This document shows, one piece after another, positions 25,045 to 39,315 of a stretch of 64,000 nucleotides of DNA. Numbering within the stretch: position 1 is the stretch's first letter; each line of letters begins with the position of its first letter. The notes beneath the pieces are model-generated. The model did no database searches and was not told the origin of the DNA. It saw only the letters and a list, made by a program, of their open reading frames with translations. The position numbers and the translations under genes are program-made. Source of the stretch: a virus; the IMG/VR virus record IMGVR_UViG_3300016471_000517, positions 1-64,000 of that record, one strand, 5' to 3'.

Positions 25045-25071
25045 GTAAAAACTTAAAATTTTTTGAATAAA

Positions 25072-25104
25072 CTTTTGGGCTCCTTTGGGGGCCCAAAATT
25101 TTTT
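25072..25104 (+). terminator. intrinsic terminator
   Basis: TTTTGGGCTCC-TTTG-GGGGCCCAAAA + T-run. Confidence 0.7.
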
Positions 25105-25352
25105 ATGCCATCCCATGCTTTTTGAGGTTTGGGGTCATGGGGGGTGGCCAAAAATTTTTTAGACCATCAAGGATATTTGAGAAATAGGGGTCGATCAAAG
25201 ATCATGGAGAATATTCAAGGTATTTTGAAAATATTTGAAAAAATTAAAGAGGGTGGGGGGAGCTAGCCGTCCGATAACCGCACCCAATATGGGACCCAAA
25301 TTTACTGTTTGGACATCGATCTTAACACAATTAATTTAATTCTCAAATAAAC

Positions 25353-25381
25353 TCAGAGGCCCCCTTGCGGGGGCCTCTGAG
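25353..25381 (-). terminator. terminator hairpin at the left edge of the GC block
   Basis: TCAGAGGCCCC-CTTGCG-GGGGCCTCTGA. Confidence 0.7.
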
Positions 25382-25391
25382 GGCTGGGAGG

Positions 25392-25598
25392 TTATCCCTC
25401 CGCGTGTTGGTCCCAGTAGAGCAAGTGCTCCTCGTCGGCCTCGTAGCCGGGGTCCTCGGTGGCATCCGCCTGCGCGTCCGCCTCCGCCATGTTCGCGCGG
25501 TCCAAGATTTCCTCGCACACCCCGCAGAGGGTGTCCGAGCCAGCGCAGACGCAGCAGGCGGGGCGGGTGGTTTCTTCGATGTGGGTGGTGCTGTCCAT
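25392..25598 (-). CDS. small acidic CxxC protein (early, leaderless)
   Basis: TTGCAT..TATACT-6nt-ATG; CCVC..LCGVC, acidic tail. Confidence 0.7.
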   Translation of the reverse strand: MDSTTHIEETTRPACCVCAGSDTLCGVCEEILDRANMAEADAQADATEDPGYEADEEHLLYWDQHAEG

Positions 25599-25658
25599 GC
25601 GTGTAGTATACCATACCTGCAACCGAATGCAAGCGCGTCGAAAGAAATTTCTAGAAAC

Positions 25659-25688
25659 ACTGCCGGCCCCCTTGGGGGCCGGCAGTGG
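25659..25688 (-). terminator. GC hairpin after 25711..25989
   Basis: CACTGCCGGCCCC-CTTG-GGGGCCGGCAGTG. Confidence 0.65.
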
Positions 25689-25710
25689 GCTGCAGGGTAG
25701 GCGGTGGGCG

Positions 25711-25989
25711 TTACATCTCGCCCCATCCCGCGCTCGCTAGCCAGTCGTTGTCGGCATCCCAGTCCTCGCGGGTCATCTGCCCGCAGGCATCCGCGAACGC
25801 ATCGTTGTCCGCCTCGCGGCTCGCCTCCTCAAGGGAAGGCTCCGCGTGTTCCCCTCCCCTGCGGGCCTCACGCTCCCGCTCCTGCTCCTCCTCGCACGAC
25901 GGGCACAGGCTGTCCGTGTAGGCATACTCCGGGCGGTGGCAGAAGCAGGGGAAGTGTTCGTCCTCGTGGTTGTGGTGCGCGTTGCTCAT
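25711..25989 (-). CDS. small acidic Cys-containing protein (early, leaderless)
   Basis: TTGACA(26024)-17-TATCAT-6nt-ATG; CFC..LCPSC, ends DWLASAGWGEM. Confidence 0.75.
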   Translation of the reverse strand: MSNAHHNHEDEHFPCFCHRPEYAYTDSLCPSCEEEQEREREARRGGEHAEPSLEEASREADNDAFADACGQMTREDWDADNDWLASAGWGEM

Positions 25990-25995
25990 GCCCCC

Positions 25996-26089
25996 ATGAT
26001 ACCATGCCCCGCTCCCCATGTCAACCCCTCCACCAAAGAAATATTTCTTTCATCCACCGCTTGACATGGGGCCGGGAGTCTGGTACAAT
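25996..26089. promoter_or_regulatory. divergent sigma70 promoter pair
   Basis: Minus TTGACA/TATCAT and plus TTGACA(26061)/TACAAT(26084), around palindrome AAAGAAATATTTCTTT. Confidence 0.85.
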
Positions 26090-26095
26090 GTGCGC

Positions 26096-26434
26096 ATGAA
26101 CACCACCTCACGCAACGGCATCGGCATCGTCCTCTCCTCTAACCTCTACTCGCGTCACGACGAAGTGATGAGCCTCCTCTCGAACGGGTGGGTGCAGGTC
26201 ACCTTCCGCAAGGGCAACGGTGATGTGGTCACCCGCCTCGGCACCCGCAACCCGACGCTCGTCGGCACCTTCGGTGACCGCGTGAACCTGACCGCCATCC
26301 GTAACTCCGACGGTCCCTTCAATGCGGTCCCGCTCGTCTACTTCGACCACGCTGCCGGAGACGTCCGCTCCTTCTATGTTGAGGATGTCCGGTCGGTCTG
26401 CATCCCGGCGGAGTGCCCGGAGAATAATCACTAA
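26096..26434 (+). CDS. SH3/WYL_2 (DUF2693)-like protein
   Basis: VTFRKGNGDVVTRLGTRN..YFD..G.VRSF. Confidence 0.7.
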   Translation: MNTTSRNGIGIVLSSNLYSRHDEVMSLLSNGWVQVTFRKGNGDVVTRLGTRNPTLVGTFGDRVNLTAIRNSDGPFNAVPLVYFDHAAGDVRSFYVEDVRSVCIPAECPENNH

Positions 26435-26483
26435 ATCTTTCTTCCCGCTTGACTCACCGCCTTCCACCCAGTACAATACACCC

Positions 26484-26675
26484 ATGACCACCATCCTCCG
26501 CATCACTTCCATCGTTTCGATCCTCTGCATCATCTTCGCCGCGTTCCTCACCTTCGGGCTCGCCTACAACGGCGACTACATCGGCGCCATGATCTGCCTT
26601 GCGCTGTGCGGTCTGTCGGTCGTGAACTGGCTAATCTCCAATGCGGTGCGCGAAGAATACTACGAGGTCCGGTAA
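26484..26675 (+). CDS. small two-TM membrane protein
   Basis: TTGACT(26449)/TACAAT(26472)-6nt-ATG; two hydrophobic stretches. Confidence 0.7.
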   Translation: MTTILRITSIVSILCIIFAAFLTFGLAYNGDYIGAMICLALCGLSVVNWLISNAVREEYYEVR

Positions 26676-26754
26676 CAACCTAACGAGGTGGTGCTCGTAC
26701 CAGCCGAAAAGGATTCGCTCCCTGCCCCGATTAGTTCGGGGCTAGGCTGTTTGA

Positions 26755-26839: not shown

Positions 26840-26843
26840 GGGG

Positions 26844-27074
26844 TTACCAGTTCACCTCCCCGCGCTCCTTGCGGTCCATAAACTCAATCTTAGCGGCAAT
26901 CCGTTGCAGTTCGCGGTCCATCTCGGCTTCTACTGCTGCTGCTGCGTCGTCTAGCCACCACATGCGACCGGGTTCGGCATCCCCGATGTCGCATCCACGG
27001 TCGGGATCGTAGTCGCAATCGCGGCCGCAGACATGGGGGCGGGTGGGTTCACCGTTGTTAGAGGAGTGGTGCAT
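26844..27074 (-). CDS. small Cys/acidic early protein
   Basis: TTGCAA/TACAAT-6nt-ATG on minus; MHHSSNNGEPTRPHVCGRDCD. Confidence 0.7.
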   Translation of the reverse strand: MHHSSNNGEPTRPHVCGRDCDYDPDRGCDIGDAEPGRMWWLDDAAAAVEAEMDRELQRIAAKIEFMDRKERGEVNW

Positions 27075-27080
27075 GTCGGC

Positions 27081-27179: not shown

Positions 27180-27740
27180 ATGAACACCACCACCACCCGC
27201 TACGCCGCCGTCCGCTCCGCTGCCATCGATTCCTTCATCACGCTGCTCGCGCAGGCTACGCTCTTTGACCTGCGCGCTGCCGAGCGTTGGTACGATGAGG
27301 CGGGCGCGTTCGCTGAATCCCTCCGCGCCACCACCGGGTGGAGCCTCGAAACGTCGGCCAGCGTCGTGTCGGCCTTCTCGCCCCGTGTCACTTGGGCGCA
27401 CAACAAGGCGAAGGCGACGCAGTACGCTCAGGGCATCACGCCGAAGGGTCTGCGGTCCCACGTGGTCGCGGCGGATCGGTGCGTCGCGGAAGGCTTCAAC
27501 GGCCTGCGCGGGCTCAAGACTAACGCGTTCGCCCGTGCCATCGCGGGTGACCGTGAGGCCGTCGTCGTGGACGTTTGGATGTGCCGTGCTGCGGGCCTCG
27601 GGAAGGATGCTCCCAACAAGACGGAATATCGGGCCATCGCATCGGCCATCCGGACCATCGCGGCCACGCCTGCCGTCAGCATGGCCCCGGCCACCCTTCA
27701 GGCCCTGCTGTGGATCATCATCCGGGGGAAGGCGGAATAA
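27180..27740 (+). CDS. DUF7178-like (HhH glycosylase-like fold) protein
   Basis: WY..A, SAFSPRVTW..N, GLKTNAF, VVVDVWM.RA, Y..I, LQA..W. Confidence 0.6.
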   Translation: MNTTTTRYAAVRSAAIDSFITLLAQATLFDLRAAERWYDEAGAFAESLRATTGWSLETSASVVSAFSPRVTWAHNKAKATQYAQGITPKGLRSHVVAADRCVAEGFNGLRGLKTNAFARAIAGDREAVVVDVWMCRAAGLGKDAPNKTEYRAIASAIRTIAATPAVSMAPATLQALLWIIIRGKAE

Positions 27741-27788: not shown

Positions 27789-27941
27789 ATGAACACCACC
27801 ACCAAGATTCGCGTCCGATTCGTCCACGAAGCACTGCGGGAAGGAATCCGGCTCCGCCCCAAGACCTGGGGCAAGAAGAGCCGGGACACTCGCAAGGCCA
27901 GGAGGGAAGGAAAGCGGGAAACGGCCCTAGAGGTGGTCTAG
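27789..27941 (+). CDS. small basic protein (50 aa)
   Basis: TTGACA(27754)/TACAAT(27777)-6nt-ATG; MNTTTKIRVRFVHEALREG... Confidence 0.65.
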   Translation: MNTTTKIRVRFVHEALREGIRLRPKTWGKKSRDTRKARREGKRETALEVV

Positions 27942-28102: not shown

Positions 28103-28510
28103 ATGTCCACCACCTCCACCGTCACCGTCCCCGCCGCCTTCCTGCCCGCCGCCATCGACCAGTCGATCCGCGCCGTTGAGGTCACGAAGGACCTCTCCTC
28201 CCTGTACCCGATCATCGGGTGCGATATGGTGGAGATCGTCCCGATCAACCACGCCTACGATTTCACCATGTGGTGCGACGAGGAGGGCTACCTCAAGGGT
28301 TCCCCGCTCAACATCCGGGCCTCCGTCATCGCGGGCCGTCACATCTTCGGGAATGTGATCCTCACCGGGGGCAAGGAGGAGATCGAAGCCTTCAGAATGT
28401 CCTGCCCCGCCGAATGGTTCCAGTCGGTGGAGGAGGCCGCAGCGTCGGTGCTGATGGCCCACCCCGAACTGCTCCGCCTCATCCTCGTGCAGGAGGGGGG
28501 AAAGAAATAA
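28103..28510 (+). CDS. DUF3846-like protein
   Basis: LY..IGC.MVE.V, MWCDEEG.LKG.P.N.RAS, IFGNV..TG. Confidence 0.75.
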   Translation: MSTTSTVTVPAAFLPAAIDQSIRAVEVTKDLSSLYPIIGCDMVEIVPINHAYDFTMWCDEEGYLKGSPLNIRASVIAGRHIFGNVILTGGKEEIEAFRMSCPAEWFQSVEEAAASVLMAHPELLRLILVQEGGKK

Positions 28511-28560: not shown

Positions 28561-28782
28561 ATGACCACCACCCTCACCGTCAAGATTCCCGCTTCCTGCG
28601 ACCGTTACGCCTACGCCTACGGCTGGGTTTCCGGCTGCATGAGCAATGTCGCAATCTACATCAAGCAGTTGGAAAACGCCACGGACGATGAACACCGCGC
28701 ACTCCTCGTGGAGCGCATCATGAATCAGGTGGAGTCCTTCAAGGCGATGGATGACTGCCTTCACAAGGAGGAAACGAAGTGA
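28561..28782 (+). CDS. hypothetical early protein
   Basis: TTGACA(28526)/TACAAT(28549)-6nt-ATG. Confidence 0.7.
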   Translation: MTTTLTVKIPASCDRYAYAYGWVSGCMSNVAIYIKQLENATDDEHRALLVERIMNQVESFKAMDDCLHKEETK

Positions 28783-29024
28783 ACAACACCCTAGCCCGTC
28801 GTGCCCGAATCATGCTCTCCGAAGGACAGCAGATCGTCGTCAAGTTTCGCAAAAAGGATGGAACGGAGACCACTCGCGGAATCACCCGCAACCTGACCAT
28901 CATTCCGAAGGACAAGCATCCGAAGTTTGTCCGAGCCGAGAACCCCCACTTCATCACCGGTTTCGACCTTGAGAAGGTAGACTGGATTCGGTTTCACGAA
29001 GACGATATTCTTGCGGTCCTCTGA
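28779..29024 (+). CDS. SH3/WYL_2 (DUF2693)-like protein
   Basis: AAGGAGG SD + GTG; VKFRKKDGT...TRNL..IP..FDLEK.DW..F. Confidence 0.75.
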   Translation: MNNTLARRARIMLSEGQQIVVKFRKKDGTETTRGITRNLTIIPKDKHPKFVRAENPHFITGFDLEKVDWIRFHEDDILAVL

Positions 29025-29059: not shown

Positions 29060-29416
29060 ATGAACACTCTCCACCCGATTCGTTCCTCCGCCTGTGTCTC
29101 ACTCGCCGCCAACATCCGCGAGAGCGAACTGATGCTCCCGCAGATCAAGGGCGACGCCCTTGAGACCAATGCAACCCTCGCGTTCTGCGAGATCGCCATG
29201 TCCGTCCCCCCGCAATGGTTCACGCCCGCCGAGCGCATGACGATCTTCAATGTCGTGAACACGCTCTACGGCCATCCGACGAAGTTTCTGTCGGACATCG
29301 ACAGCGAGACCGTTTCCTTCGTCGCCAAGTGTGGCGAACTCTGCGGAAATCGCCCACTCGCTTCCTTCGTGGAGGCTCTGCACAAGGTCCACGAAGCGGA
29401 GTGCGGAAAGAACTAG
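29060..29416 (+). CDS. hypothetical early protein
   Basis: TTGAAA(29025)/TACAAT(29048)-6nt-ATG. Confidence 0.7.
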   Translation: MNTLHPIRSSACVSLAANIRESELMLPQIKGDALETNATLAFCEIAMSVPPQWFTPAERMTIFNVVNTLYGHPTKFLSDIDSETVSFVAKCGELCGNRPLASFVEALHKVHEAECGKN

Positions 29417-29430
29417 GGTGCAGGAGGGTC

Positions 29431-29460
29431 CGATGGGGGGGCCGAAAGGCCCCCCCATCG
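29431..29460 (+). terminator. GC hairpin
   Basis: CGATGGGGGGGCC-GAAA-GGCCCCCCCATCG. Confidence 0.7.
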
Positions 29461-29466
29461 TGGACA

Positions 29467-29559
29467 GGACTACTATCCGAAAATCCTTAAGGATTTTCGG
29501 ATTTCTCGCTGGACTGTTCGCCCACCTCGCCGGATAGTAGTCCGAGGACGTTATCGGAC
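29467..29559. repeat. palindromic element copy 3 + TTATCGGAC box
   Basis: GGACTACTATCCGAAAATCC-TTAA-GGATTTTCGGA...CGGATAGTAGTCC. Confidence 0.9.
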
Positions 29560-29629
29560 CCCCCAAAAAAACTTCTATATTTCCATCCTCCCGGTTGACA
29601 CCACCCCCCGCCCGTGATACAATGCACCC

Positions 29630-29863
29630 ATGACCAACCCATACGACCCCAACTACGAAGATGACACCAACGACTCCGACCTCATGCCCTACGATGATGC
29701 GTTCGATGACGAAGATTACGTTGCCGAACTGATCGCGGAAGGCTACAGCGAGGACGAAGCCCGCCGCATGGTGGGTGAATACAACGCCGACGAGTTCTAC
29801 GGCTTCGATGATGACTCCGACCGTGACACTCCCGACTTCATTGACGATGGAGACTTTGAATGA
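29630..29863 (+). CDS. very acidic 77-aa protein (DNA-mimic candidate)
   Basis: TTGACA(29595)/TACAAT(29618)-6nt-ATG; Asp/Glu-dominated. Confidence 0.75.
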   Translation: MTNPYDPNYEDDTNDSDLMPYDDAFDDEDYVAELIAEGYSEDEARRMVGEYNADEFYGFDDDSDRDTPDFIDDGDFE

Positions 29864-30219
29864 TCGTTAAGATCAGAGCAGCCTTTCCCAAAACGGGAAG
29901 TTCGGGATGGAAGGTGCGCAGGCACAACAAGTGCATGGCAAGCCTTCTGCGGTGTGCGGCTCTTTCATCACGCTCGGATCAAAGTTTTGGCATGATGATC
30001 ACCGCAGACTTCTCCATGACCTACCGAAGCGACATCTACATCTACACAATAGAGTTTCCAGATTCGTGGGCAGAATCCCAGATTCAACAGTTTGCCCGCC
30101 TCGTAAAACAAGTGAAACATTTCTACGCCGTGGACTTGACACCCCTTTCTCCGACTGGTACAATACCACCATGCACCGACCCAACTCACCAACGACCTGT
30201 GACATCAGCGACCTGCTGA
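29860..30219 (+). CDS. hypothetical protein
   Basis: ATGA overlap with upstream stop, GGAG SD. Confidence 0.5.
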   Translation: MIVKIRAAFPKTGSSGWKVRRHNKCMASLLRCAALSSRSDQSFGMMITADFSMTYRSDIYIYTIEFPDSWAESQIQQFARLVKQVKHFYAVDLTPLSPTGTIPPCTDPTHQRPVTSATC

Positions 30220-30398
30220 ACGAAGTGTTCTCCTTCATTCAGGAGAACCCCCTGTGGTACGAGAACGAGGACGGCCTGCGCTCAATGGCGAAGGCGTACT
30301 CAATCATCGGGATGGTTTCCCGCCCCGATATGTGTACCGAAGAGGAGTGCGAGTTCGTCATGTCCATTCACGCCCAACTTCAGGAGGCCCGTCAATGA
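30171..30398 (+). CDS. hypothetical early protein
   Basis: TTGACA(30136)/TACAAT(30159)-6nt-ATG. Confidence 0.65.
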   Translation: MHRPNSPTTCDISDLLNEVFSFIQENPLWYENEDGLRSMAKAYSIIGMVSRPDMCTEEECEFVMSIHAQLQEARQ

Positions 30399-30739
30399 AC
30401 CCCAAGAACCAGTTTGAAGGATTCTTCGACAATCCGGAGAAGCCCCTCTCCTTCAACGCCGACACGATCAAGCCTCCGATGGGAGCCATCATTCAGACGC
30501 TCATGATGGTCTGCGCGTCGGTTCCCGAATGGCACAAGCAGGGTGCAATGCGACTGTTCATGTGCGAAGGACTGCACATGGCATCCGACCACATGCGCGA
30601 ATACAAGGAGAGAGGTGACGATCCTCCGGTGACGAGTGCCGAGGCAGCGTTCATGATGATTCTTGGAGATCTGCTCGCCGCCACCACGCAGTACGCTTCG
30701 GACGAAGAAAAGAAAAAGTTTCGTACCGACGAAGAGTGA
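30395..30739 (+). CDS. hypothetical protein
   Basis: AGGAGG SD, ATGA overlap. Confidence 0.7.
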   Translation: MNPKNQFEGFFDNPEKPLSFNADTIKPPMGAIIQTLMMVCASVPEWHKQGAMRLFMCEGLHMASDHMREYKERGDDPPVTSAEAAFMMILGDLLAATTQYASDEEKKKFRTDEE

Positions 30740-30779: not shown

Positions 30780-30852
30780 GGGTTCGTAGCGCAATCGGTA
30801 GCGCAGTAGACTTTTAATCTATTGGTTGTGGGTTCAAGTCCCACCGGACCCA
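30780..30852 (+). tRNA. tRNA-Lys(UUU)
   Basis: Cloverleaf; GTAGA-CTTTTAA-TCTAT arm; GTTCAAG T-loop; promoter TTGACA(30742)/TAGAAT. Confidence 0.95.
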
Positions 30853-30854
30853 TT

Positions 30855-31127
30855 ATGACAGACCCACTTCATTTCGATCCGCAAATCTTCGCACTTCAGA
30901 TGTACGACCGCGTCAACATCGTCGCAGACCTCATCGTGGAGCATTGGTTGGAAGGCAACGCCAATCCCCCGAAGGAACTGATGGATGCCTACTTCGACGC
31001 GGTGGACGCAGCCCAACTCGCTATCAATGGCAACCGACTGCATGAGTCCGTAGTTCGACCCAACGGAGAGTTCTACGAAGAGATTCATGCCAAGTTTGGA
31101 CTTGACAAGGGGCCACTTCTGAAGTAG
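30855..31127 (+). CDS. hypothetical protein
   Basis: ATG 2 nt after tRNA-Lys; GC-biased codons. Confidence 0.6.
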   Translation: MTDPLHFDPQIFALQMYDRVNIVADLIVEHWLEGNANPPKELMDAYFDAVDAAQLAINGNRLHESVVRPNGEFYEEIHAKFGLDKGPLLK

Positions 31128-31138
31128 AATGATCCCAC

Positions 31139-31211
31139 GGCACGGTAGACCAATGGCAGAGTCAATTGACTCAAAATCAATCAAGTGTGGGTTCGAGTCC
31201 CACCCGTGCTA
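31139..31211 (+). tRNA. tRNA-Leu(CAA) lacking the long variable arm
   Basis: ATTGA-CTCAAAA-TCAAT arm, 5-nt variable loop, GTTCGAG; promoter TTGACA(31102)/TAGAAT. Confidence 0.85.
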
Positions 31212-31218
31212 TTACCGA

Positions 31219-31301
31219 GATGGATCTTCTTCAAGACCATCCAAGAAGGAAGGGCCAACGAGCCGGAAACCGTTTACGGTAGACCGTAGATTAGCCCTTC
31301 C
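31219..31301 (+). ncRNA. putative structured RNA between tRNA-Leu and tRNA-Arg
   Basis: GATGG/CCATC stem whose loop can pair with AAGAAGG; GGAAGGGC/GCCCTTCC stem enclosing a hairpin. Confidence 0.4.
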
Positions 31302-31305
31302 GATT

Positions 31306-31379
31306 GTTCCCGTAGCCCAACCGGATAGAGCAGCCGCCTTCTAAGCGGCAGGTTACAGGTTCGAGTCCTGTCGGGAACG
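31306..31379 (+). tRNA. tRNA-Arg(UCU)
   Basis: Cloverleaf; GCCGC-CTTCTAA-GCGGC arm. Confidence 0.95.
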
Positions 31380-31411
31380 TTTGACAAGAAAGAAAAAGGT
31401 GGTACAATGTA

Positions 31412-31515
31412 TCCCAACTTGATTACTATTTTATAAAGTTTGGTGGTTTACAAAAACCACACAGAGGCATTCTGCGAATGCACGGTTGGGAACTAGCCGT
31501 AAAATTAGTTTCCCA
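31412..31515 (+). ncRNA. putative structured leader RNA of tRNA-Ile
   Basis: Follows promoter TTGACA(31381)/TACAAT(31403); two hairpins plus a pseudoknot-compatible segment. Confidence 0.4.
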
Positions 31516-31516
31516 C

Positions 31517-31592
31517 GGAAGGGTGGCTGAAAAGTAGTTAGAGCGCATGCCTTATAAGCGTGAATATGTGGGTGCAACTCCCGCCCCTTCCA
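31517..31592 (+). tRNA. tRNA-Ile(UAU)
   Basis: GGAAGGG/CCCTTCC acceptor; CATGC-CTTATAA-GCGTG arm; variant T-loop TGCAACT. Confidence 0.8.
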
Positions 31593-31651
31593 CTAAACTT
31601 TTTTCCGTCCGATTGCTTGACAAGACCCCAAACAGAAGGTACAATAGAAAC

Positions 31652-31933
31652 ATGAATATCGACTTCAACACCATGGCCATCGTCGTTCTTTCCGCCTTCT
31701 CTGCCTTCTTCGGCATCGGCTACATTCGTGCCCGCATTGCTGACAAGTTTTCCACCCTTCGTGAGGAAATGCAGAGCAATGCGCGAGAGTTCTACGCAGA
31801 ACAGGATCGAATCTACCAGCGCATCAACCGCCTTGAGGAGAGGGTTGAGAGCATGACCACTTACAGTTCTCACAAGCGGTACACCAACGAGAAGCCCATG
31901 CACGACAAGAACTACTACAACTCGGAAGTCTGA
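31652..31933 (+). CDS. single-TM coiled-coil protein
   Basis: TTGACA(31617)/TACAAT(31640)-6nt-ATG. Confidence 0.7.
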   Translation: MNIDFNTMAIVVLSAFSAFFGIGYIRARIADKFSTLREEMQSNAREFYAEQDRIYQRINRLEERVESMTTYSSHKRYTNEKPMHDKNYYNSEV

Positions 31934-32145: not shown

Positions 32146-33402
32146 ATGAACAGCAACATCGACATTCGCAAGCGCAACTTCCTCAACGCCCTCTGCATCA
32201 TGTACGGAACGCCCACCTGCGTCGGTGACGCCATCTACACCCGTGACCAATGCCTTGAGGCTCTTCGCCGCTGCCATGATGGGGGATTGCAGACCTATAC
32301 CGTCCTCCCGGCTTGGCTGACGCAGGACCAGTCCCGCCGCCAAGGCCGTGGAGTCTACTCCATTCATGAGATGGTCAACGTGGAGATCGAAGAGGACAAG
32401 AATCTTTCAGAAACTTTCGACTCAAACTTGACCGCACCCGAAACTTGTGATACAATGGAACCCATGAACAGCAACGCCTACAACCTCGTCATGCCCGCCA
32501 ACGATGTTTCCCTCGTCCCCGTCAAGAACGACACTTTCGTGCCGTGGGGTCACTACGAGGACATCAACTCCATCCTCGCATCCAAGCAGTTCGCTCCGGT
32601 CTACATCACCGGACTGTCCGGCAACGGCAAGACCACGATGATCGAACAGGTCTGCGCCAACACCGGGCGCGAGTGCATTCGTGTCAACATCACCGCCGAA
32701 ACGGATGAGGATGACCTCATCGGTGGCTTCCGCCTCATCAATGGCGAAACGAAGTTCGTGTTCGGTGGCGTGGTGCAGGCCATGCAGCGTGGGGCCATTC
32801 TGCTCCTTGACGAGATTGACCTCGGAACGGAGCGCATGATGTGCCTTCAGCCCGTGCTTGAGGGCAAGGGCATCTACATCAAGAAGATCGGCGCGTTCGT
32901 CAAGCCCGCTCCCGGCTTCAATGTGGTGGCCACGGCCAACACGAAGGGCAAGGGTGAGTCTGATCGGTTCGTCGGGACTCGCTGCATGAACGAGGCTTTC
33001 CTTGACCGTTTCTCGTACTGGTTTGAGCAGGAGTACGCGGACAAGGCCATCGAAGCCCGCATCATCATTCGCAAGATGAAGGCTTACGGCAAGGAGGACA
33101 AGGACTTCGCCGGATACCTCGTCAAGTGGGCAGAAACGATCCGCTTGGGCTTCAAGGAGGGTGGCTTGGATGACATCATCACGACCCGCCGACTGGAGGA
33201 AGTCTGCAAGGCGTTCGCCATCTTCGGCAACAAGGAGAAGGCCATCCGTCTGACGCTCACGCGGTTCGACGCTGCAACGCAGGAGGCTTTCTTCAACCTC
33301 TACACCAAGATCGACCCCACCATTCTTCCCACCCCGGAGGGGATGAAGGACGAATCTTCATCCGCCAATCACAACACGCCTGCTAACGCAGTTCACGCCT
33401 AA
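32146..33402 (+). CDS. MoxR/CobS-like AAA+ ATPase
   Basis: GLSGNGKT Walker A, RVNITAETDEDDLIGG, LLLDEID, TANTKGKG, NEAFLDRF, TRRL; promoter TTGACT(32111)/TAAGAT. Confidence 0.92.
   Translation: MNSNIDIRKRNFLNALCIMYGTPTCVGDAIYTRDQCLEALRRCHDGGLQTYTVLPAWLTQDQSRRQGRGVYSIHEMVNVEIEEDKNLSETFDSNLTAPETCDTMEPMNSNAYNLVMPANDVSLVPVKNDTFVPWGHYEDINSILASKQFAPVYITGLSGNGKTTMIEQVCANTGRECIRVNITAETDEDDLIGGFRLINGETKFVFGGVVQAMQRGAILLLDEIDLGTERMMCLQPVLEGKGIYIKKIGAFVKPAPGFNVVATANTKGKGESDRFVGTRCMNEAFLDRFSYWFEQEYADKAIEARIIIRKMKAYGKEDKDFAGYLVKWAETIRLGFKEGGLDDIITTRRLEEVCKAFAIFGNKEKAIRLTLTRFDAATQEAFFNLYTKIDPTILPTPEGMKDESSSANHNTPANAVHA
32428..32456 (+). promoter_or_regulatory. internal promoter giving an in-frame start at 32464
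   Basis: TTGACC-17-TACAAT-7nt-ATG, in frame (codon 107). Confidence 0.7.
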
Positions 33403-33420: not shown

Positions 33421-33651
33421 ATGCCATACCTCAACAAGCGCAATCGTTTCGTCGCAGCCGCCAAGAACTACGCGGAGAACAGTCCGCTCCTTCAGGGCGA
33501 CTTCAGCAAGTTCACCAAGCACGATCTTCTTCAGATCGCGCAGAGCATCAACATGAAGGGTGTTCCGACTTGGGTGCTGAAGGAGTACCGTAGCGCGGTG
33601 AGTCAGAGGGCTTACGATCTGTCCTCACTCATCAACCCCGTGACCGTCTGA
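33421..33651 (+). CDS. standalone paralog of the AAA N-terminal domain
   Basis: KRNRFV..Y..FTK.DL..PTWV..R..R.Y.L resembles KRNFL..Y..YTRDQ..PAWL..RRQGRGVYSI. Confidence 0.65.
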   Translation: MPYLNKRNRFVAAAKNYAENSPLLQGDFSKFTKHDLLQIAQSINMKGVPTWVLKEYRSAVSQRAYDLSSLINPVTV

Positions 33652-33808: not shown

Positions 33809-33866
33809 GCAAAAAAGATTTTCCATTGCGCTTGACCTGACCCCGAACTTGTGGTAAGATTACAGC

Positions 33867-36071
33867 ATGAACACCTCTCTCTCCATCTTCGCCCGCGCTC
33901 TCGCCACCGAAAACCTTTCTTTCTCCTTTGACGCGGAGGCTCCCACGGCATCGTTCGATGTCAAGACCCGCCACCTCGTCATGCCCGTGTGGAATGTCTC
34001 CGACACCCTTCAGACCATGCTCGTGGCTCACGAGATCAGCCATGCCCTGTGGACTCCCTACGAGCGTAGCGAGGAGTTGATGAAGCAGGCGGAGGCTGAT
34101 GGGTTCGTCGCCAAGTTGCTGCACCGCATCTGCAATGTCATCGAAGATGTCCGCATCGAGAAGATGATGAAGGCGAAGTACCCCGGTACTCGTCGGGACT
34201 TCTTCTTGGGCTACAAGGAGGTCGTGGACAGCGACCTGTTCAAGTTCAGCGAGATGGACATTGCGAAGGTCGGACTCATCAACCGCATGAACATTCACTT
34301 CAAGTGGGGCATTCCCGGCTTTCTGAATGTGAATCTTTCTGACGAGGAGCAGGGCATTGCGGACCTGATCGACGCGGTGCAGACCTTTGACGAGGCTTTC
34401 CAGTTGGCGAAGGCTCTCTACAAGCATCCGTCGATGGACGAGATGCGGAAGAAGTACGAGGAGCAGCAGCAGAATGGTTCCGGCAAGGGCGATCCTTCCG
34501 ATGCCAAGCGTGGCAAGGAGCAGACCGAAGGGCTTGGCATGATCGACATGGAGGGTGGGTTCGTTCGCAAGACGGGTGAAACTTTCACCGCGACCACGCT
34601 CACCATTTCTCCGATTCAGAATGTTTCGGATCAGATCATCACGACCGACGATCTTCTTTCGGAGTTTGAGCAGCAGTCTCACCTCCCGCTCACCATCACC
34701 TCCTACCGGGAGTTCGTGAAGGATTCCGATTCCTTCGTTCGCCAGTTGGTTGCCCAGTTTGAGCGTCGCAAGGCGGCTGACGAGATCCGGCGTGAGCGTC
34801 CCAAGCAGACCGGGATGCTCAACCTTGACCGCCTGCACCAGTACCGGACGCATGACGATATCTTCCTGTCGAAGATCATCAAGCAGGACGGCAAGAACCA
34901 CGGGATCTGCTTCTTCCTTGATTGCAGCGGTTCGATGGGGAACACCATTTCGGATTGCTTCCTTCAGATTCTTCAGTTGGTTTGGTTCTGCGAGAAGGCG
35001 AAGATTCCCTTTGAGGTGTTTGGTTTCACCGAAATGGGCATGATGGGCGAGCGTGGCAGGATTGATTCGGAGACTCTCCGCGCAATGATTGCGAAGGGCG
35101 ACAACAGCCCCTACCAGTCGCAATACGCTCCCAAGTTTGTGAATCTTCGTCCGAACAGCCTGATGTACGGTGGGTGCAAGTTGATTCAGTTGGCATCCTC
35201 GTCGGACGATGCGGCCAAGCGTGAACGGCTCCTCGCCTTTCTCTACGAGGCCATTGTCATGAAGGTGCGGAATCGCGTGTTCTCGCTTGGTTCGACTCCG
35301 ACCGTGGAGGCCATGATGATCGGAAGCCAGTTCATGCAGAAGTGGGTGGCCGACAAAAAGATTCAGATTCCGACCGTCATGGTCGTTACGGACGGTCAGC
35401 CCAACGGAGTCTACTTCCAGTCCGAACACATGAGAAGTGGGGGGGATAGCGTTCCCTACACCGCGATTGGTGGGACTTCCCTCACCGTGAACAACGAGAT
35501 TCTTCAGCAGGTCACTCGCGTCGATACGGTGGCCAACCGTGGAATGTCGATGGGCAATGTCGTGGTGTCGGTCATCCTTGAGGATCTTCGCAAGACTCTG
35601 AACGCCCGCACCGTGGGAATGTTCGTGGGTAGCAAGACTTTCAGCGCGAATATGTTCTGCTCGTTCTGCGTCACGACCGACGAATCGGAGAAGATTCATG
35701 AGGAGGAGCAGGAGCAGTATCGCAAGGGCAACTACAACTCTAGTGGTTCCTACGAGTGCAGCCCCCGGTTCATTGCGATCAAGGAAGTCTACAATCGGGA
35801 AGGGTGCATCATTCTGCCGAAGTCTCTGTACCCCGGCTATGACGGCTTCTTCCTCATCAAGACTCCCAAGATCGTCAAGGACGAGGATGCCATCGTGGAC
35901 TCCGGTACTTTCACGCGAGTGAAGAACACCTTTGTCAAGACGATGGGGCAGCGTGGATCTAGCCGTGTGTTCCTCACCCGGTATGTGGACATCGTGGCGG
36001 GTCAGCCTCTCAAGGCCGTGGGCGAGGAGGTCTACCGCCTCTCTGCCAACCCTGCCAAGAAAGATAAGTAA
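33867..36071 (+). CDS. CobT-like metallopeptidase-vWA domain protein (AAA partner)
   Basis: TASFDV..R.L..P.W, HEISHALWT, NVIEDVRIEK, DCSGSM MIDAS, STP, VTDG; promoter TTGACC(33832)/TAAGAT. Confidence 0.9.
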   Translation: MNTSLSIFARALATENLSFSFDAEAPTASFDVKTRHLVMPVWNVSDTLQTMLVAHEISHALWTPYERSEELMKQAEADGFVAKLLHRICNVIEDVRIEKMMKAKYPGTRRDFFLGYKEVVDSDLFKFSEMDIAKVGLINRMNIHFKWGIPGFLNVNLSDEEQGIADLIDAVQTFDEAFQLAKALYKHPSMDEMRKKYEEQQQNGSGKGDPSDAKRGKEQTEGLGMIDMEGGFVRKTGETFTATTLTISPIQNVSDQIITTDDLLSEFEQQSHLPLTITSYREFVKDSDSFVRQLVAQFERRKAADEIRRERPKQTGMLNLDRLHQYRTHDDIFLSKIIKQDGKNHGICFFLDCSGSMGNTISDCFLQILQLVWFCEKAKIPFEVFGFTEMGMMGERGRIDSETLRAMIAKGDNSPYQSQYAPKFVNLRPNSLMYGGCKLIQLASSSDDAAKRERLLAFLYEAIVMKVRNRVFSLGSTPTVEAMMIGSQFMQKWVADKKIQIPTVMVVTDGQPNGVYFQSEHMRSGGDSVPYTAIGGTSLTVNNEILQQVTRVDTVANRGMSMGNVVVSVILEDLRKTLNARTVGMFVGSKTFSANMFCSFCVTTDESEKIHEEEQEQYRKGNYNSSGSYECSPRFIAIKEVYNREGCIILPKSLYPGYDGFFLIKTPKIVKDEDAIVDSGTFTRVKNTFVKTMGQRGSSRVFLTRYVDIVAGQPLKAVGEEVYRLSANPAKKDK

Positions 36072-36092
36072 ATCTTTCCAAACATCTTCATG

Positions 36093-36134
36093 CCCACCCA
36101 GGACTGGAAGGAGAGAGCCAGTTCTGGGTGGGTT
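36093..36134 (+). terminator. terminator hairpin
   Basis: CCCACCCAGGACTGG..CCAGTTCTGGGTGGG. Confidence 0.65.
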
Positions 36135-36137
36135 CTT

Positions 36138-36213
36138 ACTACTATCAAAAAACCTTAAGGTTTTTTGAGTTTTCTTGCATTACTTGCGGACATGGCGGAT
36201 AGTAGTCCCGGAC
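36138..36213. repeat. palindromic element copy 6
   Basis: ACTACTATCAAAAAACC-TTAA-GGTTTTTTGA...CGGATAGTAGTCC. Confidence 0.85.
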
Positions 36214-36264
36214 AACCTCTGCCAGGTACGGGATTGTTTCCAGCTTTCCAAATAATTTATTAAT

Positions 36265-36865
36265 TCTCGGACGGACTTATCGGACTCCAGGTGCACGCCT
36301 GGGACCCATTATCGGACTTGTACTTAGTTACTTGACATCCCCCATATCTGGTGTATAGTTATCAGACTGTTCATGCGACCGATAACCCCCTCGTCCCGAC
36401 CTGTGACTGATAATCGTAAGTATTATCGGGCAGGGGGTTATCGGACGTTATGGTGGGTCCTAGTTATCGGACTATGCGTTATCGGTCTCTACTGGGGAGT
36501 TATCAGACTCACCCAGACGGTTTCAAATTTTTCTGAAAAACTTCCCGGACAGGATTCAAAGATTTCTGAAAATATTGAAAACTACTATCCGGGGGTTCTG
36601 GGACTGTATCGAATGTCCCTTATGGGACCTGGACGGGACTGAGATCCCCCCTTGCCTGGACGGGATGTAGCTTTCTGGACAGGATTGACGAGAAATTTAA
36701 TATAATTGCTTGTTTTACCTGTCCTGGCTGGACGGGTTACAAAAAATTGTCAAAAATTTGTAAATTTCTTTGAAAATTTGTCAAATTAATGCTTGACAGG
36801 CTATAAAGCCTTATAAGGCTTTGTTGTTTTGGACGGGCTGGGACCCTAGGAAGGCTTTCGGACCG
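36265..36865. repeat. non-coding iteron-like cluster (TTATCRGDC x~10; GGACRGG x~6) with AT-rich tract
   Basis: Copies at 36277, 36309, 36359, 36377(rev), 36405(rev), 36423, 36438, 36464, 36479, 36500; GGACRGG at 36547, 36631, 36658, 36677, 36730, 36831. Confidence 0.85.
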
Positions 36866-36996
36866 TTTATAGAGCATTTAAAGTGGGTTGGAGAGGGTTT
36901 GAGGTGGGGTGTCTAACTCCAATTTTCTCAAATTTTCTTAAATATTCTTTACCCCACTTGCTCCCATTCTCCCCCACCTTTACCCCCCATACATTC

Positions 36997-39314: not shown

Positions 39315-39315
39315 C

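What the first reader, a model, noticed from the sequence alone, without database searches (positions are those of the whole stretch)
25045..36995. 11-kb GC-rich island in an AT-rich phage: candidate first-injected or terminal-repeat host-takeover module
Seen: abrupt switch from AT-rich late genes to roughly 60% GC (by eye) at ~25.35 kb and back at ~36.1 kb. Both borders are non-coding and share motifs: GTCCGATAA/TTATCGGAC at 25269 vs the 36.3-36.5 kb cluster, TATGGGACC at ~25288 and ~36621, and TGAAAATATT at ~25226 and ~36566. The contents are phage-type genes (CobS-like AAA, vWA, DUF3846-like), not host genes. Established: SPO1 and T5 carry their takeover or pre-early genes in ~10-13 kb terminal repeats, and the T5 first-step-transfer DNA ends in a repeat-rich stop signal; T4-like phages are normally headful-packaged. 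Inference: this may be a collapsed long terminal repeat or first-entry segment tuned to host composition.
Basis: partly seen in the sequence, partly recalled or inferred. Interest (0 to 1): 0.8.

Follow-up and report, generated by a model that had tools for sequence, protein, structure and literature searches.

The report
GC-rich early-gene block in AT-rich phage
An uncultured lake phage related to T4 keeps an 11-kb block of bacterial-promoter-driven genes and four tRNA genes at about 58% GC inside a 38% GC genome; it looks like the phage's first-expressed gene block written in the host's codon dialect, not a terminal repeat.

Summary
GC rises from about 35% to 55-65% at 25.34-25.40 kb and falls after 36.07 kb, though only to about 45% until about 44.8 kb. 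The shared border motifs exist. The block is not a chimera or a recent import: 18 of 21 related IMG/VR contigs show the same AT-to-GC step, gene order is syntenic, and the same four tRNAs occur in 8 of 8 island-spanning relatives.

Fifteen of 19 island genes sit behind a -35/extended -10 promoter 6 nt from the ATG, so their mRNAs should be leaderless. Island GC3 is 0.79 against 0.24 in the backbone, and the phage's tRNAs read the A-ending codons that the island avoids.

Best reading: an immediate-early, host-polymerase block resembling T4 early-gene cassettes, kept free of codons that need phage tRNAs while delivering four of those tRNAs. Intergenic DNA is also GC-rich, so a DNA-level cause may add to this.

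The terminal-repeat reading is not supported. A relative carries a T4 gp17-type terminase, and island-to-backbone contig depth is about 6x, 3x and 0.35x in three runs, never a fixed 2x. Fixed ends could not be tested because only contigs were available.

This scan had already reported the same island on at least four related genomes.

The parts
25045..25391 (.). Left border, non-coding. It holds a terminator-like hairpin after the last late gene (about 25,074-25,110). It also holds one TTATCGGAC copy on the minus strand (25,269), plus TGAAAATATT (25,226) and TATGGGACC (25,288). A GC-rich hairpin at about 25,352-25,381 closes the leftward early genes.
   Evidence: Sequence read; motif positions; inverted repeat I20.
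25392..25598 (-). Small Cys-rich protein (68 aa) behind a leaderless promoter. No known family.
25711..25989 (-). Small Cys/His-rich acidic protein (92 aa) behind a leaderless promoter. It is conserved in relatives at 45-91% identity.
26096..26434 (+). WYL_2 (Sm-like SH3 barrel) protein in a leaderless cassette. The Pfam score of 25.8 bits is just under the 26.7-bit cutoff. phrog_1086 matches at E 7e-8.
26484..26675 (+). Small hydrophobic protein (63 aa) in a leaderless cassette.
26844..27074 (-). Small protein (76 aa) with a leaderless promoter, divergent from the DUF7178 promoter.
   Evidence: (I3).
27180..27740 (+). DUF7178 protein (E 1.3e-26) in a leaderless cassette. Among cultured phages, 79 of the 80 records with a match are actinophages.
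27789..27941 (+). Small protein (50 aa) in a leaderless cassette. It is 74-86% identical in relatives.
28103..28510 (+). DUF3846 protein (E 1.5e-12) in a leaderless cassette.
28561..29024 (+). Two-gene unit: a 73-aa protein with a leaderless start, then a second WYL_2 protein (28,779-29,024) that starts at GTG behind an AGGAGG-type ribosome site.
29060..29863 (+). Two leaderless cassettes: a 118-aa protein (29,060-29,416) and a 77-aa very acidic protein (29,630-29,863).
30171..30739 (+). Two-gene unit: a 75-aa protein with a leaderless start, then a 114-aa protein behind an AGGAGG-type site.
30780..31593 (+). tRNA cluster: Lys(ttt) at 30,780-30,852, Leu(caa) at 31,139-31,211, Arg(tct) at 31,305-31,380 and Ile(tat) at 31,517-31,593. 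A 90-aa ORF lies at 30,855-31,127. The same four tRNAs occur in the same order in 8 of 8 island-spanning relatives.
31652..31933 (+). Small membrane-type protein (93 aa) in a leaderless cassette.
32146..33402 (+). CobS-like / MoxR-type AAA+ ATPase (AAA_5; phrog_249 at E 3e-96) in a leaderless cassette. A second in-frame leaderless promoter gives a start at 32,464.
   Evidence: (D5).
33421..33651 (+). 76-aa protein, second gene of the CobS unit.
33867..36071 (+). 734-aa partner of CobS (phrog_459 'peptidase' at E 6e-118, with a weak match to a cobalamin-biosynthesis PHROG) in a leaderless cassette. The 'vWA' label is recalled; Pfam gave no hit.
36138..36213 (.). Last of six box-hairpin-box palindromic elements, each built from an ACTACTATC-type box and a GATAGTAGT-type box around a hairpin. 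The other five lie near 26,754-26,844, 27,940-28,017, 29,469-29,548, 32,057-32,087 (one arm) and 33,699-33,784. They are probably terminators or insulators between cassettes.
   Evidence: D8, D10, D11, I2, I9, I11.
36264..36628 (+). Array of 11 TTATCGGAC-type sites (up to 1 mismatch). A consensus -35/-10 promoter at about 36,333-36,362 fires into it. A like array follows the vWA gene in 6 of 6 relatives that reach that far. It is a candidate docking array, either operator-like or origin-like.
36629..36995 (.). Rest of the right border: 3-4 CTGGACGGG repeats, four TTTCTGAAAA-type 21-nt repeats, and an AT-rich stretch at about 36,680-36,800.
   Evidence: D12.

Best explanation
The island is the immediate-early gene block of an uncultured freshwater myovirus related to T4. 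It is transcribed by the unmodified host RNA polymerase.

Anatomy (shown): the block is built from about 15 promoter-gene-terminator cassettes. Each promoter has an AT-rich upstream stretch, TTGACA, a 17-nt spacer and TGnTACAAT, and it sits 6 nt from the ATG. The mRNA should therefore begin at the start codon. The cassettes are separated by box-hairpin-box elements.

Composition (shown): the genes are written almost without A-ending codons. The rest of the genome is AT-rich and uses exactly the codons that the phage's own tRNAs read. Four of those tRNA genes (Lys-UUU, Leu-CAA, Arg-UCU, Ile-UAU) lie inside the island.

Mechanism (inferred):
1. On entry into a high-GC host, the island is the only part of the genome that can be translated well by the host tRNA pool.
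2. Its products act early, and they include the CobS/vWA pair and small DNA-binding-type proteins.
3. Its tRNAs then open the AT-rich middle and late genes. Many of those genes sit behind TAAATA-type late promoters.

The block is inherited within the lineage and its composition is actively maintained. It is not a terminal repeat. The TTATCGGAC array at its right edge is a conserved protein-docking site of unknown role, either origin-like or operator-like.
For: - **Real and inherited.** Of 21 IMG/VR contigs found with the DUF7178 protein, 18 show an AT-rich flank followed by DNA of at least 55% GC, 2 start inside the island, and 1 is GC-rich throughout. Gene order is syntenic at 25-97% protein identity. 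The same four tRNAs occur in 8 of 8 island-spanning loci. Independent Logan contigs bridge both GC steps: X1 records 1 and 7, and X3 record 13.
- **Early-type promoters.** Fifteen of 19 island genes have their own -35/-10 with 6 nt to the ATG (D1/D6, 44, 73). A TAAATA word lies 3-16 nt before the ATG in 24 of 110 backbone ORFs and in 0 of 19 island genes, against about 1% at random positions.
- **Two codon regimes.** GC1/2/3 is 0.57/0.41/0.79 in 15 island genes and 0.45/0.37/0.24 in 78 backbone ORFs. Island against backbone usage is AAA 4% vs 78%, AGA 2% vs 64%, ATA 0% vs 36%, CCA 4% vs 59%, CAA 10% vs 81% and GAA 33% vs 83%. The contig's ten tRNAs include Lys-ttt, Arg-tct, Ile-tat, Leu-caa, Pro-tgg, Glu-ttc, Gln-ttg and Gly-tcc.
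- **Composition is maintained.** Orthologues in relatives have GC3 of 0.70-0.88. Among the island-bearing relatives, only 42-73% of shared four-fold sites are still identical, against 31-39% expected at saturation.
- **Lineage-specific.** In the cultured freshwater T4-like cyanophage S-SRM01, the homologous 'peptidase' and MoxR ATPase pair lies in 35-41% GC DNA like its surroundings.
- **Precedents, from abstracts read.** T4-like cyanophages stay low-GC and carry tRNAs for their own codons when infecting high-GC hosts (PMC3152331). Early and late phage genes often differ in codon usage (PMC5683454). Lack of one host tRNA can block a T4-like cyanophage (PMC11726456). T4-type phages hold early genes in promoter plus stem-loop cassettes (PMC2839356).
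Against: - The host is unknown, so 'host codon dialect' is inferred only from the island and the tRNA set.
- No transcript data exist, so early timing and leaderless 5' ends are read from sequence alone.
- Intergenic DNA in the island is also GC-rich: 53.4% over 2,139 nt, against 27.7% and 33.7% for backbone non-coding DNA. GC1 is raised too. Codon selection alone does not explain either. Part of the intergenic excess may come from GC-rich hairpins.
- A few early-type leaderless promoters lie outside the island and drive AT-rich ORFs with GC3 of 0.23-0.37, at 61,951, 62,188 and 88,233. Host-polymerase transcription therefore does not always go with GC-rich codons.
- Replication genes, which are early or middle genes in T4, are AT-rich here.
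- Contig depth of the island differs from the backbone by 0.3x to 6x. This model does not predict that without the added assumption that islands and backbones reassort among co-occurring strains.
Confidence: 0.6

Rival explanations
1. DNA-level cause. The island is GC-rich because the host polymerase must find and transcribe it on naked incoming DNA in a high-GC cell. AT-rich foreign DNA there would be coated by xenogeneic silencers (H-NS, Lsr2 or MucR types) or would scatter the polymerase over spurious AT-rich sites. A GC-rich setting would leave the consensus promoters as the only strong sites. Codon usage would then follow the composition rather than drive it.
For: Island intergenic DNA is 53.4% GC against 27.7-33.7% in backbone non-coding DNA. 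The untranslated 17-nt promoter spacers printed are visibly GC-rich inside the island and AT-rich outside it; I read this by eye and did not compute it. GC1 is also raised. Search listings show that Lsr2-type silencers bind regions with a drop in GC (PMC7002338) and that silencers act on incoming AT-rich DNA (PMC8894471); I saw only the start of each abstract.
Against: The host and its silencers are unknown. The strongest shift is at third codon positions (0.79 against 0.24), as codon selection predicts. GC-rich hairpins fill much of the short intergenic space. Some early-type promoters work in AT-rich context elsewhere in the genome. This reading is not exclusive of the main explanation.
Confidence: 0.2
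2. The island is a collapsed long direct terminal repeat, or the first-injected segment, as in T5 or SPO1, with the repeat-rich right border acting as a stop or end signal.
For: The size of 11 kb, the content of small early genes and the repeat-rich non-coding borders resemble T5 and SPO1 terminal repeats; that comparison is recalled, not tested. Island contigs have a different and mostly higher depth than flanking contigs, with sharp steps, in X1 and X3.
Against: Depth ratios are about 5.3-6.5x (X1), 2.2-4.5x (X3) and 0.3-0.4x (X4), not 2x. The X1 steps lie at 25,752/25,806 and 37,363/37,392, not at the proposed ends. A relative with the same island encodes a T4 gp17-type terminase, with 49% identity to cyanophage gp17 and matches in 2,696 records; such terminases package by the headful (established knowledge). 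IMG/VR classes G000, G001 and G002 as linear without end repeats. Contig depth is a poor copy-number measure, and the tool says so.
Confidence: 0.05
3. The island is a reassorting or extra-copy module. It moves between backbones by recombination at its cassette promoters, or it exists partly as separate molecules such as PeSL-type mini-circles that carry the origin-like array. Its GC content would reflect its own history or frequent GC-biased exchange rather than expression timing.
For: In X4 the identical backbone stands at 26-31x while this island variant stands at about 10x. An X4 contig also runs from 39,431 back to 36,331, exactly at the -35 box of the border promoter, and then continues for 317 nt into unlike sequence (tables 7 and 8). 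In X1 the island stands at 70-85x against 13x for a 25-kb backbone contig. Island segments align at 72-80% nucleotide identity in 10-25 related loci, while the flanking late genes align in 0-3. PeSL recombination and encapsidated mini-circles are described for T4-type phages (PMC2839356, abstract).
Against: None of the listed X1 joints links 37.4 kb back to 25.8 kb, although 17 joints were not shown. The island's tRNAs serve the backbone's codons, not its own, so the two parts are functionally tied. Every relative seen has exactly one island at the same place. The loci were chosen through island or neighbouring genes, which favours island coverage.
Confidence: 0.1
4. The island is a recent horizontal import from a GC-rich phage or host that has not yet drifted to the phage's composition, or it is an assembly chimera.
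For: DUF7178 and DUF3846 have their only cultured-phage homologues in GC-rich actinophages: 79 of 80 records and 13 of 13 records respectively. One GC-rich contig, L045, carries a 46% identical DUF7178.
Against: The same island sits at the same place, with the same order and tRNAs, in relatives diverged to 25-88% protein identity. Four-fold sites are roughly half-way or more to saturation, yet GC3 is still 0.70-0.88. The junctions are bridged by independent contigs and recur in 18 of 21 contigs. No integrase or clean flanking direct repeat was seen.
Confidence: 0.03

Closest known systems
Hyperplastic early-gene regions with PeSL (promoter-early stem-loop) cassettes of T4-type phages RB49 and phi1 (Arbiol et al. 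2010, PMC2839356; abstract read)
   Same: Both are arrays of small, mostly unknown genes. Each gene sits behind a strong sigma70-type promoter, and the genes are separated by stem-loop terminators. Recombination occurs at the cassettes; here the hint is the X4 contig that switches sequence at a promoter -35 box.
   Different: Here the promoter sits 6 nt from the ATG, giving leaderless mRNAs. The stem-loop is framed by an inverted 8-10-nt box. The block holds tRNA genes and the CobS/vWA pair. Above all it is about 20 GC points richer than the rest of the genome. I saw no mention of any of these in that abstract; I did not read the body.
tRNA 'adaptation' strategy of low-GC T4-like cyanomyoviruses on high-GC hosts (Limor-Waisberg et al. 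2011, PMC3152331; abstract read)
   Same: An AT-rich T4-type genome that carries tRNAs for its own A-ending codons. The terminase and the CobS/vWA pair have their nearest cultured relatives in these phages.
   Different: That paper contrasts two strategies in two phage families. Here both appear in one genome: a host-like GC-rich early block, and an AT-rich remainder served by phage tRNAs. In the cultured freshwater cyanophage S-SRM01 the homologous gene pair lies in ordinary 35-41% GC DNA.
Early/late codon-usage partition in phages (Mioduser et al. 2017, PMC5683454; abstract read)
   Same: Early and late genes carry different synonymous codon sets, which the authors link to the tRNA pool and to GC content.
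   Different: The reported differences are statistical trends in cultured phages. Here the split is extreme (GC3 0.79 against 0.24), physically contiguous, sharp-edged and conserved across a lineage.
Long terminal repeats of T5 and SPO1 carrying pre-early or host-takeover genes (recalled; no paper read)
   Same: A block of about 10-13 kb of small early genes with repeat-rich non-coding edges.
   Different: There is no 2x depth, no end repeats in the records, and a T4 gp17-type terminase in a relative. T5 and SPO1 repeats are not, as far as I recall, compositionally distinct from the rest of the genome.
T4 oriE iterons and the oriF/oriG promoter-plus-unwinding-element origins (Kreuzer and Brister 2010, PMC3016281; passages read)
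   Same: The right border has a cluster of short direct repeats that is conserved at a syntenic place in relatives. It also has a sigma70-type promoter firing into it and an AT-rich stretch next to it.
   Different: The repeats here are 9-10 nt and unevenly spaced (13-50 nt), whereas oriE has evenly spaced 12-nt repeats. Single copies also stand upstream of several island promoters. No RepEA/RepEB-like gene was identified, and no origin activity is known.

Membership tests
Long direct terminal repeat (T5 / SPO1 type) | The same sequence at both virion DNA ends, seen as exactly 2x depth over the repeat | tested here: not met
   Per-contig depth ratios are about 5.3-6.5x (X1), 2.2-4.5x (X3) and 0.3-0.4x (X4). 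The caveat is that contig depth in mixed populations is a weak measure of copy number.
Long direct terminal repeat (T5 / SPO1 type) | Fixed physical ends (read starts) at the repeat borders | not testable with these tools
   All runs served were Logan contigs. Table 6 lists none, and contigs cannot show ends.
Long direct terminal repeat (T5 / SPO1 type) | A terminase of a fixed-end packaging type rather than a headful type | tested here: not met
   G000 lacks a terminase; it is a fragment. Relative G001, which has the same island, has a 551-aa terminase 49% identical over 98% of its length to T4-like cyanophage gp17.
T4-type early hyperplastic region with PeSL cassettes | Repeated strong sigma70-like promoters in front of small genes | tested here: met
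   Fifteen of 19 island genes have TTGACA-N17-TGnTACAAT-type promoters. Function was not assayed.
T4-type early hyperplastic region with PeSL cassettes | Stem-loop terminators paired with the promoters | tested here: met
   Six box-hairpin-box elements plus GC-rich hairpins lie between the units (D8, D10, D11, I11, I20). Terminator activity was not assayed.
T4-type early hyperplastic region with PeSL cassettes | Gene content that varies between close relatives through exchange at the cassettes | tested here: inconclusive
   Some cassettes are missing or reordered in relatives; DUF3846, WYL_2a and the 28,561 gene are each absent from several loci. One X4 contig switches sequence at a promoter. 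The core order is nevertheless conserved.
T4-type early hyperplastic region with PeSL cassettes | The phage belongs to the T4 type | tested here: met
   gp6-like baseplate wedge. DNA polymerase (phrog_262), primase and DnaB-like helicase PHROGs; 'T4-type' for these is my reading of the names. gp17-type terminase in a relative. TAAATA late-type words before 24 of 110 backbone ORFs.
Phage tRNA compensation for a high-GC host ('adaptation') | Phage tRNAs match codons that the phage uses often | tested here: met
   AAA 78%, AGA 64%, ATA 36%, CCA 59%, CAA 81%, GAA 83% and GGA 42% in 78 backbone ORFs, with cognate tRNAs present.
Phage tRNA compensation for a high-GC host ('adaptation') | The host has a high GC content and a poor supply of those tRNAs | not testable with these tools
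   The host is unknown. psbA and WhiB are absent from 3 of 3 records, all of them fragments. GMP reductase homologues are at most 50% identical and spread over many phyla.
Iteron-type replication origin (T4 oriE-like) | A cluster of direct repeats conserved at a syntenic site | tested here: met
   Eleven sites lie in 36,264-36,628. There are 4-9 sites after the vWA gene in 6 of 6 relatives that reach that far.
Iteron-type replication origin (T4 oriE-like) | Even spacing, a cognate initiator protein, and origin activity | tested here: inconclusive
   Spacing is uneven at 13-50 nt. No initiator was identified. Origin activity is not testable here.
Horizontally acquired island or mobile element | Patchy presence among relatives, integrase or att repeats, and genes that serve the element itself | tested here: not met
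   The island is present at the same place in every relative that covers the site. No integrase family was found among the 10 of 19 island proteins that I scanned. The borders are only weakly alike. Its tRNAs decode backbone codons, not island codons.

The most novel reading that the evidence does not exclude
The island is a DNA-level 'ignition' segment. In a high-GC host whose nucleoid proteins silence or whose polymerase is misdirected by AT-rich foreign DNA, the phage keeps one GC-rich stretch where consensus promoters stand out and stay unsilenced. It reassorts this stretch as a unit between backbones. On this reading both the composition, including intergenic DNA and promoter spacers, and the uncoupled island-to-backbone depths (6x, 3x, 0.35x) reflect a semi-autonomous, exchangeable start module with its own origin-like array.
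Probability: 0.15. Interest if true: 0.8.

Novelty: new variant of a known kind. Interest (0 to 1): 0.6.

Why it matters
This is a natural genome that holds two opposite codon regimes side by side and keeps them apart over long divergence. That makes an old question directly testable: do phage tRNAs exist to bridge a codon gap with the host, and must the genes expressed before those tRNAs appear be written in host codons? The same block can be recoded, or its tRNAs removed, once a host is found.

It also gives a clean set of about 15 near-identical leaderless promoters for work on leaderless translation. It is a candidate case for asking whether base composition itself, through silencing or promoter contrast, shapes where a phage places its first genes.

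For annotation, it shows that a sharp GC island in a viral contig need not be a chimera, a prophage insert or a terminal repeat.

Tried and rejected
- **Near-identical DNA in cultured phages.** Only a 45-nt tRNA-Arg match to a Thermus phage was found. That is too short to mean anything about the host.
- **Backbone protein 18,386-20,410.** It has no match in cultured phages. Most of the ten large backbone ORFs scanned have no Pfam or PHROG family (three more).
- **Host search.**
  - psbA was absent from 0 of 3 records and WhiB from 0 of 3. All three records are fragments, so this proves nothing.
  - The GMP reductase scan of genome contigs gave 111 relatives, 80 kept, all at or below 50% identity and spread over Gamma-, Beta- and Deltaproteobacteria and others. 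It gave no host clue.
  - Rfam has a single permuted-tmRNA family, so it does not tell the lineage.
- **Base modification as the cause.** No ThyA/gp42-fold enzyme was found in 3 of 3 records, and ThyX was found in 3 of 3. There is no sign of hydroxymethyl-pyrimidine DNA, so I dropped the idea.
- **Circular closure of relative G002.** Its two ends share a repeat of about 120 nt, offset by 45 nt. This is not a clean end repeat, and IMG/VR calls the record linear. I make no claim from it.
- **Ends of IMG/VR contigs inside the island.** They do not fall at one site. Several stop at the centre of palindromes, which I read as assembly breaks rather than DNA ends.
- **Border-to-border alignment.** Similarity is weak outside one block of about 30 nt. 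I rejected the borders as att-like repeats.
- **Depth as a test of a 2x repeat.** Only contig means were available. Bins without cover in X4 are not used as evidence.
- **Literature.** Five full-text searches found no paper describing a GC-rich early block in an AT-rich phage. That is the extent of the claim that it is not in print. Supplements were not consulted.
- **Complex prediction, structure prediction and the large protein searches** were not used.

Full report
**What the window is.** The window is the first 64 kb of a single 117,060-bp virus record. IMG/VR classes the record as linear, and CheckV estimates it at 58% complete, so it is a fragment. Its overall GC is 37.8%. It has no terminal overlap, and its last gene is cut. 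Logan runs that hold it are labelled freshwater or lake-water metagenomes.

The backbone is of T4 type:
- a gp6-like baseplate wedge gene;
- DNA polymerase (phrog_262), primase, DnaB-like helicase and ribonucleotide reductase;
- a gp17-type large terminase in relative G001, 49% identical over 98% of its length to cyanophage gp17, with matches in 2,696 phage records.

**The observation.**
- One-kb windows are 0.497-0.645 GC from 25,001 to 36,000. They are 0.278-0.425 everywhere outside 25-44 kb.
- The left edge is sharp, at 25,340-25,400. The right edge falls after the last gene (36,071), but only to 0.42-0.49, and that level lasts to about 44 kb. That intermediate stretch holds four HEAT/LRV-repeat paralogues.
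- Both borders are non-coding.
The 9-nt word TTATCGGAC occurs six times in 117 kb, all in or at the island. With one mismatch it gives 19 window hits against 11.4 +/- 3.4 expected, 17 of them in 25,269-36,628 and 11 in 36,264-36,628.
- TGAAAATATT occurs only at the two borders.
- Otherwise the two borders align poorly.

**Not a chimera and not a recent import.**
- A search of IMG/VR with the island's DUF7178 protein gave 21 distinct contigs. Eighteen show an AT-rich flank followed by DNA of at least 55% GC, two start inside the island, and one (L045, 46% identity) is GC-rich throughout.
- The gene order is kept at 25-97% protein identity. From left to right it is: Cys-rich gene (leftward), WYL_2, DUF7178, DUF3846, second WYL_2, acidic protein, tRNA-Lys, tRNAs Leu-Arg-Ile, CobS, vWA partner.
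- The same four tRNAs stand in the same order in 8 of 8 island-spanning loci.
- Orthologues of CobS, its partner and DUF7178 have GC3 of 0.70-0.88. Among the island-bearing relatives, 42-73% of shared four-fold sites are still identical, against 31-39% expected at saturation. The composition has therefore been held through much synonymous change.
- Independent Logan contigs bridge both GC steps: X1 record 1 reaches 25,752, X1 record 7 covers 35,972-37,392, and X3 record 13 covers 31,479-36,601.

**Anatomy.**
- Fifteen of 19 island genes have their own promoter. Each has an AT-rich upstream stretch, TTGACA or a close variant, a 17-nt spacer, TGnTACAAT (TGGTAAGAT for CobS and its partner), six bases, then ATG. 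With the start codon 7 nt after the -10 box, the transcript should begin at the A of the ATG, which means a leaderless mRNA. This is read from sequence; no RNA data exist.
- The other four genes are second genes of a unit. Two of them follow AGGAGG-type sites.
- Three genes at the left end point leftward, and the rest point rightward.
- Six box-hairpin-box palindromic elements and several GC-rich hairpins separate the units.
- In the backbone the picture differs. A TAAATA word ends 3-16 nt before the ATG, most often 5-6 nt, in 24 of 110 ORFs of at least 80 aa. The figure is about 1% at random positions and 0 of 19 for island genes. TATAAATA is the T4 late-promoter word; that is recalled knowledge.

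**Two codon regimes.**
- In 15 island genes (2,434 codons) GC1/2/3 is 0.57/0.41/0.79.
- In 78 backbone ORFs of at least 150 aa (26,104 codons) it is 0.45/0.37/0.24.

| Codon | Island | Backbone |
|---|---|---|
| AAA | 4% | 78% |
| AGA | 2% | 64% |
| ATA | 0% | 36% |
| CCA | 4% | 59% |
| CAA | 10% | 81% |
| GAA | 33% | 83% |

- The contig's ten tRNAs are Lys-ttt, Leu-caa, Arg-tct and Ile-tat inside the island. Outside it are Pro-tgg, Glu-ttc, Gln-ttg, Gly-tcc, Tyr-gta and Asn-gtt.
- Eight of the ten read the backbone's favoured A-ending or UUG codons, which the island avoids. The island therefore carries tRNAs that its own genes hardly need.

**Best reading.** The island is the immediate-early block. 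Host polymerase transcribes it, the host tRNA pool of a presumably high-GC host translates it, and it delivers four of the tRNAs that the AT-rich remainder needs. The pieces are known separately:
- T4-like cyanophages stay low-GC and bring tRNAs when infecting high-GC hosts (PMC3152331, abstract).
- Early and late genes differ in codon usage in half of the phages tested (PMC5683454, abstract).
- Lack of one host tRNA can block a T4-like cyanophage (PMC11726456, abstract).
- T4-type phages keep early genes in promoter plus stem-loop cassettes that recombine (PMC2839356, abstract).

What is unusual here is the combination and the extremity: a sharp-edged, conserved, contiguous block about 20 GC points above the rest. 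In the cultured freshwater cyanophage S-SRM01, the homologous 'peptidase' plus MoxR-ATPase pair sits in 35-41% GC DNA among core T4 genes. The GC-rich state is therefore a feature of this lineage.

**What does not fit neatly.**
- Island intergenic DNA is 53.4% GC (2,139 nt), against 27.7% and 33.7% for backbone non-coding DNA. GC1 is raised as well.
- The untranslated promoter spacers look GC-rich inside the island and AT-rich outside it. I read this by eye.
- Codon selection alone does not explain these points. Either the dense GC-rich hairpins account for them, or a DNA-level pressure acts as well. Candidates are avoidance of silencers of AT-rich DNA and contrast for the promoters.
- A few early-type leaderless promoters outside the island drive AT-rich ORFs.
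- The replication genes are AT-rich. Only the very first genes would be under the constraint.
- The host is unknown. psbA and WhiB are absent from three fragmentary records. The GMP reductase gave no lineage signal. DUF7178 and DUF3846 have cultured-phage homologues almost only in actinophages (79 of 80 and 13 of 13 records). The terminase and the CobS pair are nearest to cyanophages and pelagiphages. The phage also encodes a permuted tmRNA. These hints disagree with one another.

**The terminal-repeat reading.**
- Only contigs could be laid, so read ends could not be seen.
- Per-contig depths are informative but weak evidence.

| Run | Backbone contigs | Island contigs | After the island |
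|---|---|---|---|
| X1 (possibly the source sample) | 13x for a 25,340-nt contig reaching 25,752 | 69.8-84.9x from 25,806 to 35,996; 55.8x over 35,972-37,392 | 14.4x |
| X3 | 3.5-5.1x | 11.1-15.6x | not stated separately |
| X4 | 26.4x and 31.5x, identical backbone | 9.4-11.1x, with one piece at 78.4x | included in the backbone figures |

- In X4 the left backbone contig stops at 25,253. The right one runs back to 36,331, which is the -35 box of the border promoter, and then continues for 317 nt into sequence unlike this island.
- A fixed 2x repeat does not give 6x, 3x and 0.35x.
- The simplest account is that island variants and backbones reassort among co-occurring strains by exchange at cassette promoters, as described for PeSLs. 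Extra copies, such as mini-circles, are not excluded, but no listed joint shows one.
- Island segments are also the part best conserved at DNA level among relatives: 10-25 loci align at 72-80%, against 0-3 for the flanking late genes. That sampling is biased toward the island.
- Together with the gp17-type terminase, I put the terminal repeat at about 5%.

**The right border.**
- The TTATCGGAC array has 11 sites in 365 nt.
- A consensus promoter at about 36,333 fires into it.
- The CTGGACGGG and TTTCTGAAAA repeats and an AT-rich stretch follow.
- The array is conserved in position in 6 of 6 relatives that reach that far.
- Single copies of the word also stand 25-45 nt upstream of the -35 box of several island promoters: 28,027, 29,551, 32,078 and 33,800.
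- This fits a docking site for one DNA-binding protein, either operator-like or origin-like. T4 oriE has conserved iterons, and oriF/oriG combine a promoter with an unwinding element (PMC3016281, passages). Nothing here shows that it is a genome end or an injection stop.

**Earlier scan notes.** After forming my reading I found that this scan had already reported the same GC-rich early island on at least four related genomes. It had also drawn the PeSL and iteron analogies. I re-tested the main claims on this window. I did not confirm one earlier suggestion, that contig ends mark programmed nicks. The contig ends I looked at are scattered, and several stop at palindrome centres, which is what assemblers do.

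**Verdict.** The block is a conserved, composition-maintained immediate-early block. It is a new variant of T4-type early cassettes combined with tRNA compensation, and it is not a terminal repeat.

Noticed in passing
window 51,942-52,195 (-): Phage-encoded circularly permuted (two-piece) tmRNA. Rfam tmRNA_permuted scores 77.4 bits against a gathering score of 47. ARAGORN reads the tag as ANIKAAPMRMAA. From recall, permuted tmRNAs are known in Alphaproteobacteria, some Betaproteobacteria and the marine picocyanobacterial clade. That gives a possible host hint, which conflicts with the actinophage-like small genes.
   Followed up: partly
window 32,428-32,466: A second complete leaderless promoter lies inside the CobS-like ORF and would start an in-frame 312-aa product at 32,464 (D5, 44). 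Cultured-phage homologues align only from about residue 55-116 onward. The first roughly 105 aa may therefore be a lineage-specific extension that is made optionally.
   Followed up: no
window 39,283-42,467 (+): Four paralogous HEAT/LRV-repeat proteins stand in a row in DNA of intermediate GC (GC3 0.46-0.49). Two early-type leaderless promoters lie just upstream at 38,681 and 39,084. Logan contigs show many rearranged joints here, which may reflect repeat-driven variation (table 5).
   Followed up: no
backbone, whole contig: Late-type TAAATA words sit mostly 5-6 nt before the ATG in 24 of 110 backbone ORFs. Only 26 of 101 ORFs have a GGAG/GAGG/AGGA word at -18 to -4. Late mRNAs may therefore be leaderless too.
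   Followed up: partly
window 1,043-2,116 (+): A GMP reductase / IMPDH-family gene (E 1.6e-66) sits behind an early-type -35/-10 promoter in a local GC bump of 42.5%.
   Followed up: no
window 25,806-37,392 in run X1: The stretch of raised contig depth (56-85x against 13-14x) is offset from the GC island. It starts about 400 nt inside the island on the left. On the right it ends about 1.3 kb beyond it, at the start of the gene at 36,997-37,386. This is unexplained. It may mark the recombination unit that strains share.
   Followed up: partly
L019, L031, L033, L035, L037 (contig ends): Several IMG/VR contigs of relatives end in ...GAT or begin with ATC..., at the centre of palindromes next to the box-hairpin-box elements. 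This is probably an assembler effect at perfect palindromes.
   Followed up: partly
L045 (whole locus): A 10.5-kb viral contig that is uniformly 51-60% GC carries a 46% identical DUF7178 gene and no tRNAs. It may sample the GC-rich phage gene pool that shares these small early genes.
   Followed up: no
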